The notes under the pieces are model-generated. The model saw only the letters and a program-made list of their open reading frames with translations, was not told where the DNA came from and did no database searches. A stretch of DNA of 20,000 nucleotides from Reclinomonas americana ATCC 50394 (lineage: Eukaryota). A program made the translations under genes and the position numbers. This document shows positions 3,853 to 6,800 of the stretch, piece after piece; the stretch's first letter is position 1, and each line of letters starts with the position of its first letter. Where the stretch lies: positions 136,845 to 156,844 of the forward strand of contig PS015299.1 of assembly GCA_048213135.1 (NCBI GenBank). Direction: 5' to 3'.

Positions 3853-6800
3853 ATGTCGGTGAGTTGTATTGATTGAGTGGGGGACACTTGTTGTTCTCTC
3901 GCTTCTCTCTGTCTTCTCTCCTCGTCGCTTGTCACTCACTGCCTTGTATGCGACACAGTTCTCTGTGAATGTGAGTGCGGCGCATGATTCGTCGCTGTCG
4001 GTGGTTGTGGAGGGCATGTCGGCCATGTCCACTCTCGCGGACTTGCTGCGCGAGGCCACACGCTTGCTGCGTGAGAAGAGTGGAGATGAGGGGATGGAGA
4101 TTGTGGGGGTGGAGAAGCCGGTACCGTATGACCTGACGCACGCCAGTGGCGTTCCGCTGTGTGCGCTTGGCATTAACTCATCAACTCATCTTGTTGTCCG
4201 TCTGACACTTGGCGTGGCGCTGTCGTCGAGTGGAGGGAGTGAGAGTGGAAGGTGTGTGTTAATGAGTCATCCGCTTTGCATAACATGCAGCTCACTCTCA
4301 TGTCTCCCAGCAGCAACTCGGAGAGAGTGACTCGGTTTGTTCTGCTTGCCTTCGTCCTCCTTCTCTCCTTGCTTGTTCTTCCACTTGATCCGAGTATGTG
4401 CTGACTGTGTTTGTGTGTGCATGCGCAGCATGATCAACTCGCAGCGCGTCAACATGGCCTTTGAGGTGGTGGAGGAGGCCGTGCGTCTGCGCTGTCAACG
4501 CGCACTGGCACAGTTCAGTCGCGATCATCCCGACTTTGATGTGCGGGCGTGGGTGCCGACATTCTCGCCTGCTGGTATGGATGTGGCGGCAGTGAAGGCG
4601 TGGCGAGCGAGACATTCAGTGCCTGGCATTGGATTCGTCAAGCTGCCGAGAGAAGCATGGGCGCATGTGCATGATTGGCACGCTACTTTCGCCGCCAACT
4701 CGGCTGTTGATCCACCGTGCAGTGGTTTGGACATTGGCGATCTCGGCTCCATGTTCTCGTACGGGGCGTTTATTGAGATGGACAGCAGTGACGGTCGGCG
4801 GCAAGTACACGAATTGCTTTTAGTTGTGGCTGAACGACTGGCAATTGAGCAAGCTGTGCAAGTGCGTAATACGTTGGCACACCATCGAGACCAAGCATTG
4901 TGGACGGATGCCACTGTGCAGCAGTACCTTGGTGACCGTGGTGTTTTCCTCTCCGTCCTCTCTCGACTGCAGTTGACGGCTGATGAGCAAGCTCGATTCG
5001 CTGCGCGTATCGTTGAGGCGCGCCACGTTCAGCACGTCGTCAGCACATTTGATGAGCGGCTGCATCGACTGGCTGTGCGTGAGGTCTCCTTCTACCAATA
5101 CGACGAGAGTGTGCGTAAGGACATGCAGATGTATGTGCCACTGCTGTGTTCACGTGATCATGACGTCTCATCGAGAGAGAAGATGACGGATCTGTTGACG
5201 GAGGTGAATATTTTCCTCTCCGACTCCAATACCAGTCAGCATGTGCTGGTGCTCTTCGGCAACAGTGGCGCCGGCAAGACCACCACCATGTCGGTGTTGG
5301 CTGAGCGAGCATGGCGACAGTGGCAGACGAGAGAGAGCAGACGAGTGCCTGTGCGTGTGCCTCTTGGTGCACTGCGCAATGCCGATGAGCGGCTGTTGGA
5401 GGAGGCACTGGATCGATTGTCGCCCGAGTTGGGATTGGAGTCGGATGTGCGACGACTGAAGGAGGAGCCACTGCTGTTGTTGCTTGACGGGTACGACGAG
5501 CTGTACCGTGGTGTGAATCTGTTTGTGAAGAACCAGCTGGATGTGTGTCACGATGTGAAGGTGATTATCACATGTCGAGGTGATTACGCACTGACGGCTC
5601 TGGGTGGTGTGACGCAGTATCGACGGTATTTTGCACCGGATGCACGAGGACAGTTGTGCATGCAGCAGCTGACGGAGCGACACATTGCTCCGTTCAACAA
5701 GGAGCAGATTGAGGAGTATATTGGGCGACTGGTGCAAGTTGGTTGTGATGACGGAGAAGTGCGATGGTCAACTGCCGAAGAGTACTTTTATGCACTGAAA
5801 AGGGTGCACGGACTTGATGCACTGGTATCGAATCCATTCCTGTTGGCAGTGGTGGCTCGTGTGCTGCCGCAGCTGGTGGCTCGTGGTGTGCAGCGACCGA
5901 CTCGGTGTGATGTGTTTGACCGATTCATTCGACAGTGGATTGAGAGGGAGCAGGAGAGGCAGACGCGTCTCGGTGTGGAGCTTGTGCCGAGTGAGGAGAC
6001 GTGTCTCGCATTCTGTGAGGGTCTGGCGCGGTTGATGCATGAGAGGAATGTGGTGCGAGTGTCTGTGATTGAGAGTCAATCAAGTGAGGATCACTTTGGT
6101 GGTGCGCCACTTGCCTTGCGACAAGTGAAAGAGGGACCATTTTACAAGTTCCTCGGGCAGAAGAACCAGCATGTGCGAGTGTGCTGTCCGATTTTGCGAC
6201 GGTATGGGACAACGCAGTGGGGATTCGTACATCTATCGCTGCTGGAGCACTGCGTGGCACGACATGTGTTTGCGTGGGACACGTGGGATGAGGAGAGGAG
6301 ATTGACGATGCAGGATGTGCGGCAGCATGTGCTGGCTGTCCGATTGCTGAATGATCGACCGTCGTTGGTGGAGCAGATGGCCGAGGTGGTGCGCCGATCT
6401 CCTGCGTTGCAAGCGAGACTGTGGGAGGTGATTGAGATGTCGCGTGAGGTGGATGAGGAGCGAGTGGTGACGGCGGCTTCGAATGCAGCGACGGTGTTGT
6501 GTGTGGCACAAGTGTCGTTCAGTGGACGAGATTTGTCGGGTGTGCGAGTGAGGGGTGCGGATTTGAGGGATGCGGTGATGCACAGGACGGTGTGGAGGGG
6601 AGCGGACTTGCGAGGGGTGAATTTGTGCATGGCGTATGCGAGGGAGGCGGATTTCAGGGGGGTGGATGTGACGGGTGTGAAGTGGCCACGGAAGCCGCTG
6701 GAAGGACACATGGATTGGGTGCGTGCAGTGGCAGTGACACCCGATGGGCAGCACGCTGTGAGTGGCAGTTGGGACAAGACTGTACGGGTGTGGTCGGTGG

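What the first reader, a model, noticed from the sequence alone, without database searches (positions are those of the whole stretch)
4545..4935. HEPN-type R-x4-H motif conserved inside an otherwise highly diverged segment
Seen: copy 1 AIEQAVQVRNTLAHH (RNTLAH 4865-4882) versus copy 2 AVEELRDARNEFAHG (12986-13003), with upstream LDIGDLGSMFSYGAF versus FDTTALHSIMLYGGF. R, N, A and H are retained although most neighbouring residues differ. Known: a 'D...L..h....F ... RN.hAH' layout is typical of Swt1-like, DZIP3-like and related HEPN domains. Inference: catalytic residues under purifying selection, i.e. an RNase effector.
Basis: partly seen in the sequence, partly recalled or inferred. Interest (0 to 1): 0.8.

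Follow-up and report, generated by a model that had tools for sequence, protein, structure and literature searches.

The report
HEPN-like RNase head on NLR-type receptor
Two neighbouring copies of a large immune-receptor-like gene carry, at their front end, a small domain that most likely is a divergent RNA-cutting (HEPN) module, and the core of that module has been swapped or kept apart between the copies while the rest of the gene stayed similar.

Summary
The window holds two tandem ~8 kb units. Each has one long + strand gene: an N-terminal ~200 aa domain, a NACHT NTPase, pentapeptide repeats, and 7 or 11 near-identical WD40 repeats. Copy identity is 93% just upstream of a ~355-nt block (4560-4915 / 12710-13030), 33-58% inside it, and 85% downstream. 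R-N-x-x-A-H lies inside the block in both copies.

The HEPN reading is partly supported:
- The motif and an upstream LD...L helix align in one register with bacterial Swt1-family HEPN domains (hhalign P 0.002-0.003; 0 of 150 shuffles reach the score).
- For copy 2, the only Pfam hits are two HEPN families (best E 0.01, below cut-off).
- Protein-language-model neighbours of both copies are HEPN_Swt1, DZIP3 and DUF4559 clusters.

The similarity disappears when the six motif residues are masked. Copy 1 alone has no Pfam hit, and both structure routes were inconclusive.

Synonymous sites in the block are saturated (dS above 1.3, against 0.1-0.8 elsewhere) with dN/dS near 0.3. The block is therefore an anciently diverged cassette under purifying selection, not a fast-evolving patch. 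Copy 2 has a 22-nt deletion and an in-frame TAG upstream of the block, so its N-terminus looks broken. This is a new variant of the known HEPN-STAND/NLR theme.

The parts
4421..7741 (+). Copy 1 gene, 1106 codons from the ATG at 4421 (a second ATG at 4430 is the one shared with copy 2) to the stop at 7741. Order: N-domain, NACHT, pentapeptide repeats, WD40 repeats.
   Evidence: ORF and translation. A pyrimidine-rich tract lies directly upstream.
4700..4948 (+). Putative Swt1-like HEPN core of copy 1, taken as the span aligned to the HEPN_Swt1 family.
   Evidence: hhalign against 133 Swt1-family sequences: 72 columns, score 26.1, P 0.002. Tool hhalign of A4 against A5: P 0.002. MAFFT gives the same register.
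4560..4915 (+). Strongly diverged block of copy 1 (the cassette).
   Evidence: Nucleotide identity 0.33-0.58 against 0.85-0.93 in the flanks. Not aligned by blastn. dS saturated, dN/dS about 0.3.
4727..4771 (+). LDIGDLGSMFSYGAF: predicted helix with a conserved Asp, aligned to the family's LDxAALL helix.
4865..4882 (+). RNTLAH, the R-x4-H motif of copy 1, at the C-terminal end of a predicted helix.
   Evidence: A and H are invariant across the 47-sequence alignment.
4649..4666 (+). REAWAH, a second R-x4-H string found in copy 1 only. Probably incidental.
5243..5590 (+). NACHT NTPase of copy 1. Walker A GNSGAGKT is at 5258-5281 and Walker B LLLLLDGYDE at 5471-5500.
   Evidence: PF05729, E 2.5e-8, 34.4 bits against a cut-off of 26.7. 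Motif positions.
6515..6685 (+). Pentapeptide repeats of copy 1.
   Evidence: PF00805, E 5.4e-8. Coordinates.
6698..7640 (+). Seven full WD40 repeats and one truncated repeat of 42 aa (126 nt), highly alike.
   Evidence: Pfam WD40, 7 stretches. TRF: period 126, 7.3 copies, 83% matches. Repeat list.
12585..12722 (+). Copy 2 5' remnant: ATG plus 44 codons matching the copy 1 N-terminus, then TGA. It lies in a different frame from the main ORF.
12709..12787 (+). Lesions of copy 2: the junction of a 22-nt deletion relative to copy 1 (at about 12709/12710) and an in-frame TAG at 12785-12787.
12788..16276 (+). Copy 2 main open frame: HEPN-like core, NACHT (13355-13843), pentapeptide repeats (14642-14812), and 11 WD40 repeats (14825-16210).
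12710..13030 (+). Diverged block of copy 2 (the cassette).
12863..12907 (+). FDTTALHSIMLYGGF, the counterpart of the LD...L helix.
12986..13003 (+). RNEFAH, the R-x4-H motif of copy 2.
   Evidence: Pfam HEPN_Swt1 stretch 52-71. hhalign of copy 2 alone, P 0.0024.

Best explanation
Each unit encodes an NLR-like STAND receptor. Repeat domains at the C-terminus (pentapeptide plus highly alike WD40 blades with a few hypervariable surface positions) would sense a ligand. The central NACHT NTPase would oligomerise on activation. The N-terminal ~200 aa domain is a very divergent Swt1-type HEPN domain that acts as the effector.

Inferred mechanism, by analogy with RNase L/Ire1 KEN, Cas13 and other HEPN RNases: oligomerisation brings two HEPN domains together, so that their R-N-x-x-A-H motifs (R177/N178/H182 in copy 1) and the upstream Asp form a metal-independent RNase site. 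That site would cut cellular or invader RNA, giving growth arrest, death or virus restriction.

The core of the HEPN domain (about 4560-4915) is an anciently diverged cassette. It has been exchanged between paralogues, or has escaped the gene conversion that homogenises the rest of the gene, and it has stayed under purifying selection. Copy 2 currently looks 5'-disrupted.

Shown here: the architecture, the motif, the block boundaries, the dS/dN pattern, and the profile-level likeness to Swt1 HEPN. Inferred only: the HEPN fold, dimerisation, RNase activity, and an immune or conflict role.
For: Architecture:
- NACHT is over the Pfam cut-off in both copies, pentapeptide repeats are present, and there are 7 and 11 WD40 stretches.
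- Walker A and B are intact.

HEPN signal:
- For copy 2, the only two Pfam hits among 24,736 models are HEPN_Swt1 (E 0.01, on the motif stretch) and HEPN_RiboL-PSP (E 0.23).
- The best NCBIfam hit of copy 2 is Cas13e, over the motif region (E 0.043).
- Atlas neighbours of copy 1 score 0.93 to clusters partly carrying DUF4559, HEPN_DZIP3 or HEPN_Swt1.
- Atlas neighbours of copy 2 score 0.79 and 0.78 to clusters that are 99% HEPN_Swt1 and 94% HEPN_DZIP3. All ten of its best family-bearing hits fall in one clan.
- hhalign of our 2-sequence core against 13 Swt1-family domains taken from genomes: score 23.6, P 0.003. 0 of 150 column shuffles reach it (null 12.1 +/- 2.4, maximum 19.3). The reversed sequence scores 11.5.
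- Against 133 sequences: score 26.1, P 0.002, 72 columns. The tool's own hhalign gives P 0.002.
- Each copy alone aligns in the same register.
- MAFFT of 47 sequences puts A and H of the motif in invariant columns. Our W, L and R fall in three of the family's near-invariant columns.
- The motif sits at the end of a predicted helix followed by a loop in both AF2 runs. PMC3710099 places Rx4-6H there (end of helix-3; passages read). The same paper states that the residue after R is typically N, D or H.

Context:
- N-terminal Swt1 HEPN joined to an NTPase is the rule in the bacterial members fetched here (DUF499 ATPase or SNF2).
- HEPN-NACHT fusions are described in animals, and HEPN-STAND fusions in bacteria (PMC3710099).

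Selection:
- In the block, dS is 1.3 to saturated, dN 0.43-0.52, dN/dS about 0.3. Elsewhere dS is 0.12-1.1 and dN 0.01-0.25.
- The flanking non-coding DNA is still 80-84% identical.
Against: - Copy 1's N-domain has no Pfam hit at E up to 10, and copy 2's hit is below the gathering score (16.6 against 27.5 bits).
- hhalign probabilities are low (3-14%). With the six motif residues masked, the score falls to the null level (13.0). The sequence evidence therefore rests on the motif and its immediate context.
- Copy 1 alone scores only P 0.075.
- A home-made HMM of the family gives only 7.8 bits (copy 2) and 3.7 bits (copy 1) for the best stretch, on the motif.
- No sequence relative of the N-domain was found anywhere, so conservation beyond two copies cannot be checked.
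- AF2 with the two copies alone gave pLDDT 40.
- AF2 with Swt1 sequences added gave pLDDT 69 and pTM 0.43. That run is circular for the fold, and its PDB searches returned only generic helical matches (Foldseek best E 0.38; VIA best Z 6.2).
- Ours lacks three near-invariant family residues (W18, W47, R98 in the numbering).
- Copy 2's N-terminal part is out of frame and interrupted.
- Atlas scores under 0.9, and 0.93 with low 'recognition' (2080), are only leads by the tool's own notes.
Confidence: 0.65

Rival explanations
1. The N-terminal domain is a lineage-specific helical adaptor or signalling domain (for instance a homotypic interaction or membrane-targeting module, as in many NLR N-termini). 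The R-N-x-x-A-H string would be a chance or structurally required feature, not an RNase site.
For: - No family hit reaches a curated cut-off.
- Profile similarity vanishes when the motif is masked.
- Fold searches return only generic helical hairpins.
- The closest NACHT relatives carry quite different N-termini.
- Keeping 4 of 6 residues at 42% local identity is not by itself unusual (arithmetic).
Against: - Three libraries and a language-model search all point to HEPN proteins and to nothing else.
- The upstream LD...L helix and a conserved W also fall in register with the Swt1 family.
- 0 of 150 shuffles reach the hhalign score.
- The motif has the typical polar N after R and sits at a helix end.
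Confidence: 0.2
2. The domain is a true HEPN fold, but it serves as an RNA- or ligand-binding or regulatory module rather than a nuclease, like the inactive HEPN of Swt1 itself or of nucleotidyltransferase partners. Alternatively, the locus is decaying: copy 2 is a pseudogene and copy 1's motif is a relic.
For: - Copy 2 has a frameshifting deletion and an in-frame stop upstream of its HEPN core.
- Inactive HEPN domains are common, according to passages of PMC3710099.
- No listed sequencing run is on record as RNA, so expression is unknown. This is not evidence either way.
Against: - R, the polar N, and H are all intact in both copies, together with the upstream Asp.
- Inactive HEPNs usually lose these residues (PMC3710099).
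- dN/dS of about 0.3 over a saturated dS shows long-term constraint.
- The 1159-codon frame of copy 2 is otherwise open.
Confidence: 0.12

Closest known systems
Swt1-family HEPN domains (Pfam PF18731), bacterial Ava_2192-like and SNF2-fused forms
   Same: - Same motif form, R-N-x-x-A-H (RNRWAH in the family).
- An upstream LD..(A)L helix and a conserved W in the same register.
- An N-terminal position ahead of an NTPase.
   Different: - Score below the Pfam cut-off.
- Lacks three near-invariant family residues.
- Has a predicted beta-hairpin insert between the LD helix and the motif helix.
- The partner NTPase is NACHT, not DUF499 or SNF2.
- The host looks eukaryotic.
Animal HEPN-NACHT proteins (CXorf38/DUF4559 and DZIP3/hRUL138-like HEPN fused to NACHT, DEATH, CARD; PMC3710099)
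   Same: A HEPN domain joined to a NACHT NTPase in a putative immune or apoptotic receptor. Language-model neighbours include clusters carrying PF18738 and PF15112.
   Different: - No alignment-based hit to PF18738 or PF15112.
- The C-terminal sensors here are pentapeptide plus WD40 repeats, not LRR, ankyrin or TPR.
- No Death-fold adaptors.
Fungal NACHT-WD40 NLRs with highly internally conserved repeats (HET-E/HET-D/NWD type; recalled, not read here)
   Same: - Tripartite layout: N-terminal effector, NACHT, WD40.
- 42-aa repeats are 83-86% identical at nucleotide level.
- Variability is concentrated at five positions, and repeat number differs between paralogues.
   Different: - The N-terminal domain is HEPN-like, not HET, HeLo or PNP_UDP. 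A survey of fungal NLR effector domains has 0 occurrences of 'HEPN' (PMC9815663, term search of the main text only).
- A pentapeptide-repeat segment lies between NACHT and WD40.
NACHT-pentapeptide-WD40 proteins of Mycoavidus/Glomeribacter endofungal bacteria and Mortierellaceae fungi
   Same: These are the closest sequence relatives of the NACHT-to-pentapeptide core (29-33% identity over 95-99% of 551 aa, E 1e-35 to 1e-53). They have the same domain order.
   Different: Their N-terminal regions are about 540 aa long and lack R-N-x-x-A-H. The Mycoavidus one shows only weak TPR hits. Others are named by their sources as kinase or metallophosphoesterase fusions.
Bacterial HEPN-STAND proteins and Avs/bNACHT anti-phage STANDs
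   Same: The logic of an effector domain activated by STAND oligomerisation after ligand sensing by C-terminal repeats. WD40 sensors and HEPN-like effectors are mentioned in PMC3710099 and PMC13581612 (passages read).
   Different: No PADLOC defence model matches beyond weak hits (Hp2 E 0.0012; WD40-driven HEAT-ARM_XIII). The genomic setting is eukaryote-like.

Membership tests
HEPN superfamily / Swt1-like HEPN (PF18731) | R-x4-6-H motif with a polar residue (N/D/H) after R | tested here: met
   RNTLAH and RNEFAH. The criterion is taken from PMC3710099 passages.
HEPN superfamily / Swt1-like HEPN (PF18731) | Motif at the end of helix-3, running into the loop before helix-4 | tested here: inconclusive
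   DSSP of both AF2 models puts the motif at the C-terminal end of a helix followed by a loop. Model confidence is low (pLDDT 40) or the MSA is circular (pLDDT 69).
HEPN superfamily / Swt1-like HEPN (PF18731) | Conserved acidic residue in an upstream helix | tested here: met
   The Asp of LD/FD (4730-4732; 12866-12868) is kept in both copies and aligns with the family's LD.
HEPN superfamily / Swt1-like HEPN (PF18731) | Score at or above Pfam's gathering threshold | tested here: not met
   Copy 2 scores 16.6 bits against 27.5 (E 0.01). Copy 1 has no hit at E up to 10.
HEPN superfamily / Swt1-like HEPN (PF18731) | Significant profile-profile match to family members | tested here: inconclusive
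   hhalign P 0.002-0.003, probability 3-14%, 0 of 150 shuffles reach the score. The match is lost when the motif is masked.
HEPN superfamily / Swt1-like HEPN (PF18731) | Four-helix up-down bundle fold | tested here: inconclusive
   Foldseek on PDB: no match at E <= 0.001. VIA wide: best Z 6.2, generic helical. No solved Swt1-family structure is detectable by sequence.
HEPN superfamily / Swt1-like HEPN (PF18731) | Metal-independent RNase activity dependent on R and H | not testable with these tools
   Needs a biochemical assay.
DZIP3-like HEPN (PF18738) / CXorf38 (PF15112) | Sequence match to the family profile | tested here: not met
   No hmmscan hit at E up to 10. Only language-model neighbours.
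NACHT NTPase (PF05729), STAND class | Profile match over the cut-off, with Walker A and Walker B | tested here: met
   34.4 and 37.4 bits against 26.7. GNSGAGKT and LLLLLDGYDE are present in both copies.
NLR-like tripartite receptor | N-terminal effector, central NOD, C-terminal ligand-sensing repeats | tested here: met
   Domain order. The effector identity is only probable.
NLRs with highly internally conserved WD40 repeats | Near-identical repeats with a few hypervariable positions and variable copy number | tested here: met
   Period 126 nt, 83-86% matches, 7.3 against 11 copies. Entropy peaks at repeat positions 6, 7, 9, 25 and 27 among 19 repeats.

The most novel reading that the evidence does not exclude
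A unicellular eukaryote, possibly a trans-splicing protist with tandem gene arrays, carries a family of NLR-type immune or allorecognition receptors whose death effector is an orphan HEPN RNase. The HEPN core exists as several anciently diverged cassettes that are shuffled onto a conserved NACHT-pentapeptide-WD40 chassis by recombination. In this system both the effector and the WD40 sensor surface diversify in a modular way.
Probability: 0.25. Interest if true: 0.7.

Novelty: new variant of a known kind. Interest (0 to 1): 0.45.

Why it matters
HEPN RNases joined to STAND/NACHT switches are a recurring design of conflict systems in bacteria and animals. A version with pentapeptide plus highly alike WD40 sensors, in what looks like a protist genome, would extend that design to a poorly sampled lineage. 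Its HEPN domain has no detectable sequence relative in 1.84 billion representative proteins.

The sharply bounded block shows that the effector core has a different history from the rest of the gene: it is synonymous-saturated yet under purifying selection. This could be cassette exchange or protection from gene conversion. It is directly testable once the other paralogues are available, and it bears on how NLR repertoires diversify.

Tried and rejected
Searches for relatives of the N-domain, all negative:
- Word-indexed search of 5.8 billion proteins, region 29-330, proteins of 623-1985 aa only: 0 hits.
- Exhaustive phmmer over 1.84 billion representatives: 0 hits at E <= 0.001.
- PDB phmmer: 0 hits. 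PDB profile search: one meaningless coiled-coil hit, E 2.3.
- The search for related loci in metagenome and genome contigs with a two-copy alignment: 0 relatives.
- A degenerate DNA pattern for the unusual P-loop in metagenome contigs: 0 matches.

Genome and earlier findings:
- No whole genome is held, so 'all genomic paralogues' could not be aligned.

Sequencing runs:
- Two DNA(?) runs of one sample hold small shares.
- Laid on 4200-6700, they hold 4200-4536 exactly. They hold only <90%-alike pieces of 5861-6697 and nothing over the N-domain.
- No RNA holder is listed. Nothing can be said on expression or on other cassettes.

Structure and complex prediction:
- Complex prediction of two copies of the core gave no answer (score 0.00, partner fold uncertain). 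This is neither for nor against dimerisation.
- AF2 with two sequences gave pLDDT 40 and was unusable.
- AF2 with Swt1 sequences added gave pLDDT 69 and is circular for the fold. Its Foldseek and VIA searches listed only generic helical matches and no HEPN chain.

Other checks:
- Rfam gathering scan of the window: 0 matches.
- Eight further ORFs of 164-268 aa in the spacers: 0 Pfam families at E <= 0.01. They are probably not genes.
- I considered an intron (GTGAGT...CAG) to bridge the copy 2 break. By my reading, no GT-AG pair restores the frame, so I rejected it.
- I considered positive selection as the cause of the diverged block and rejected it, because dN/dS is about 0.3 and dS is saturated.

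Literature:
- 'HEPN, NACHT, WD40, kinetoplastid' (at least 3 of 4 terms: 13 papers).
- 'NACHT, trypanosomatid, NLR, WD40' (141 papers, 12 listed).
- Neither listing showed a paper describing this architecture in protists. Most papers were seen as listings only. Supplements were not opened.
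Full report
**What is in the window**

The 20 kb window contains two tandem units of about 8 kb.
- blastn aligns 1-4553 to 7994-12708 at 80-84% identity, and 4901-7640 to 13016-15767 at 86%.
- Each unit has one long + strand ORF: 4337-7741 (first ATG at 4421, 1106 codons) and 12797-16276.
- The DNA between and after the genes is low-complexity and purine- or pyrimidine-rich.
- It holds two 20-N gaps, at 8891-8910 and 9992-10011.
- It has no Rfam match, and none of eight further ORFs scanned has a Pfam family.
- No whole genome is held for the window.
- Long non-coding spacers, same-strand tandem genes and a pyrimidine tract before the ATG make me think of a eukaryote, perhaps a trans-splicing protist. 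That is inference from recalled knowledge and was not tested.

**Architecture**

Both proteins carry the same domains in the same order:
- a NACHT NTPase (PF05729; 34.4 and 37.4 bits against a cut-off of 26.7), with Walker A GNSGAGKT and Walker B LLLLLDGYDE;
- pentapeptide repeats (PF00805);
- 7 (copy 1) or 11 (copy 2) WD40 repeats.

The WD40 units are 42 aa (126 nt) and 83-86% alike at nucleotide level. Among the 19 repeats listed, variability is concentrated at repeat positions 6, 7, 9, 25 and 27. Ahead of the NACHT lies a domain of about 260 aa with no family assignment at Pfam thresholds. This is the tripartite layout of NLR-like STAND receptors.

**The observation**

The motif lies inside a sharply bounded block.
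- Nucleotide identity between the copies is 0.93 up to about 4558, 0.33-0.58 from about 4590 to 4915, and 0.85 again from 4916.
- blastn does not align the block at all.
- In 40-codon windows, amino-acid identity in the block is 0.42-0.45. There dS is 1.3 to saturated, dN 0.43-0.52 and dN/dS about 0.3.
- In the rest of the pre-WD40 gene, dS is 0.12-1.1 and dN 0.01-0.25.
- The flanking non-coding DNA is still 80-84% identical.

The block therefore cannot be a patch that simply evolved fast after the duplication. It has a much older divergence. Either it escaped the gene conversion that keeps the rest of the gene alike, or it was exchanged with a distant paralogue. It has been under purifying selection throughout. 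The alignment in the block is uncertain and dS is saturated, so the ratio is rough.

The 5' edge of the block coincides with a 22-nt deletion in copy 2.

**State of copy 2**

Copy 2 keeps an ATG (12585) and 44 codons nearly identical to the start of copy 1. The 22-nt deletion then shifts the frame, giving a TGA at 12720-12722. In the frame of the main ORF there is also a TAG at 12785-12787. No GT-AG pair that I could find restores the frame. So copy 2's HEPN-like core is not connected to its start codon. Either it is a recently broken gene or the assembly is wrong there.

**Is the N-domain a HEPN domain?**

Evidence for:
1. The motif has the canonical form, R followed by a polar N, then x-x-A-H. 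In both AF2 runs it sits at the C-terminal end of a predicted helix followed by a loop. The HEPN survey places Rx4-6H there (PMC3710099, passages read).
2. For copy 2, the only Pfam hits at E up to 10 are two HEPN families: HEPN_Swt1 (E 0.01) and RiboL-PSP-HEPN (E 0.23). Its best NCBIfam hit is Cas13e, over the motif region (E 0.043).
3. Language-model neighbours of copy 1 score 0.93 to clusters partly carrying DUF4559, HEPN_DZIP3 or HEPN_Swt1. Those of copy 2 score 0.79 and 0.78 to clusters that are 99% HEPN_Swt1 and 94% HEPN_DZIP3. By the tool's own notes these are leads only.
4. I fetched real Swt1-family domains. PF18731 matched in 13 of 401 genomes searched, 12 of them over the cut-off. 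A further 6807 proteins at E <= 0.001 came from a profile search, of which 120 were listed and used.
5. These domains read LDLAALLRVLDQNW ...
6. hhalign of our two-copy core against 13 of them scores 23.6 (P 0.003). 0 of 150 column shuffles reach that (null mean 12.1, SD 2.4, maximum 19.3), and the reversed query scores 11.5.
7. Against 133 sequences the score is 26.1 (P 0.002) over 72 columns. The session's own hhalign tool gives P 0.002.
8. Each copy alone aligns in the same register (copy 2 P 0.0024, copy 1 P 0.075).
9. MAFFT of 47 sequences (33 of the 120 kept after an 80% identity filter, 12 locus domains and our two copies) puts the motif's A and H in invariant columns. Our W, L and R fall in near-invariant ones.
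10. In the bacterial members the Swt1 HEPN is N-terminal to an NTPase: DUF499 in 1 of 5 scanned and SNF2 in 4 of 5.
11. HEPN-NACHT and HEPN-STAND fusions are described in PMC3710099.

Evidence against:
- Copy 1 has no Pfam hit, and copy 2 is below the gathering score.
- hhalign probabilities are only 3-14%.
- Masking the six motif residues drops the score to 13.0, the null level.
- A home-made family HMM gives only 7.8 and 3.7 bits for the best stretch.
- Three near-invariant family residues are not shared.
- No sequence relative of the N-domain exists in any collection searched, so the motif's conservation is known from two copies only.
- AF2 on the two copies alone failed (pLDDT 40).
- AF2 with Swt1 sequences added reached pLDDT 69 and pTM 0.43, but that run is circular for the fold. 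Its PDB searches returned only generic helical matches.
- No solved Swt1-family structure could be found by sequence for comparison.
- The dimer job gave no verdict.

**Most likely mechanism**

My confidence in this reading is about 0.65. The protein would be a ligand-gated STAND switch.
- The WD40 surface, and perhaps the pentapeptide segment, binds a trigger.
- NACHT-driven oligomerisation brings the N-terminal HEPN domains together.
- The paired R-x4-H sites then cleave RNA, as in other HEPN RNases.
- The result would be growth arrest, death or restriction of an RNA parasite.

Only the architecture, motif, profile likeness and selection pattern are shown here. The fold, dimerisation, catalysis and biological role are inferred.

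Rivals:
- a non-HEPN helical adaptor with a chance motif (about 0.2);
- a HEPN fold that is non-catalytic, or a decaying locus (about 0.12).

**Relatives of the chassis**

The NACHT-to-pentapeptide core (551 aa) finds 38 proteins at E <= 0.001. The best are 29-33% identical over 95-99% of the query and have the same NACHT-pentapeptide-WD40 order. They come from Mycoavidus and Glomeribacter (endofungal bacteria), Mortierellaceae fungi and metagenomes.
- None of the 38 carries R-N-x-x-A-H in its N-terminal region.
- The Mycoavidus N-terminus shows only weak TPR hits.
- Two others are named by their sources as kinase or metallophosphoesterase fusions.

The chassis is therefore shared, and the N-terminal module is swapped, as is usual for NLR-like proteins.

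**Novelty and verdict**

HEPN joined to NACHT/STAND is a known theme. This case differs in four ways:
- an orphan HEPN-like domain recognisable only at motif and profile level;
- pentapeptide plus highly alike WD40 sensors;
- an apparently eukaryotic, unidentified host;
- an anciently diverged effector cassette inside otherwise similar paralogues.

My two literature searches (mostly listings) did not show this architecture described for protists. A fungal NLR effector survey has no occurrence of 'HEPN' in its main text.

I rate it a new variant of a known kind, with moderate interest.

Noticed in passing
6698-7640 and 14825-16210: The WD40 arrays are made of 42-aa units that are 83-86% alike at nucleotide level, with 7.3 copies in one gene and 11 in the other. 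Amino-acid variability is concentrated at repeat positions 6, 7, 9, 25 and 27. This is the pattern recalled for fungal NLRs with highly internally conserved repeats, and it suggests a diversifying binding surface and repeat shuffling.
   Followed up: partly
12585-12800: Copy 2's start (ATG 12585, 44 codons) is cut off from the main ORF by a 22-nt deletion relative to copy 1, which leads to a TGA at 12720. There is also an in-frame TAG at 12785-12787. The deletion sits exactly at the 5' edge of the diverged block, as a recombination scar might. An assembly error is not excluded.
   Followed up: partly
4649-4666: Copy 1 has a second R-x4-H string, REAWAH, about 70 residues before the main motif. 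Its counterpart region in copy 2 does not have it. It becomes the best hhalign match when the main motif is masked, at null-level score.
   Followed up: partly
5090-6700 (core) and L001:1001-5980: The closest relatives of the NACHT-pentapeptide core (29-33% identity) are proteins of Mycoavidus and Glomeribacter (bacteria living inside Mortierella-type fungi) and of Mortierellaceae fungi themselves. This hints at gene flow of the chassis between hosts and symbionts. No tree was made.
   Followed up: no
1-4300, 7750-12580, 16280-20000: The long spacers have no credible genes. Their base skews are strong (for example GC skew 0.45 and AT skew 0.57 at 2001-3000). They contain GA, TCTC and G/A-rich tandem repeats and two runs of 20 N (8891-8910, 9992-10011). 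A pyrimidine-rich tract lies just upstream of each gene's ATG. The host is probably a eukaryote, identity unknown.
   Followed up: partly
4859-5068 (copy 1 N-domain residues 147-216): There is a weak PADLOC hit to model PDLC03005 'Hp2' (E 0.0012, profile positions 12-77 of 359), covering the motif and the helices after it. I do not know what Hp2 is.
   Followed up: no
4916-5200 and 13031-13330: The stretch between the HEPN-like core and the NACHT (SRLQLT...ERLHRLAVRE.SFYQ.DESVRKDMQMYVPLLCSRD) is very conserved between the copies (amino-acid identity up to 0.93, dN/dS 0.06). It is predicted as long helices and has no family hit. It may be a coupling or oligomerisation element.
   Followed up: no
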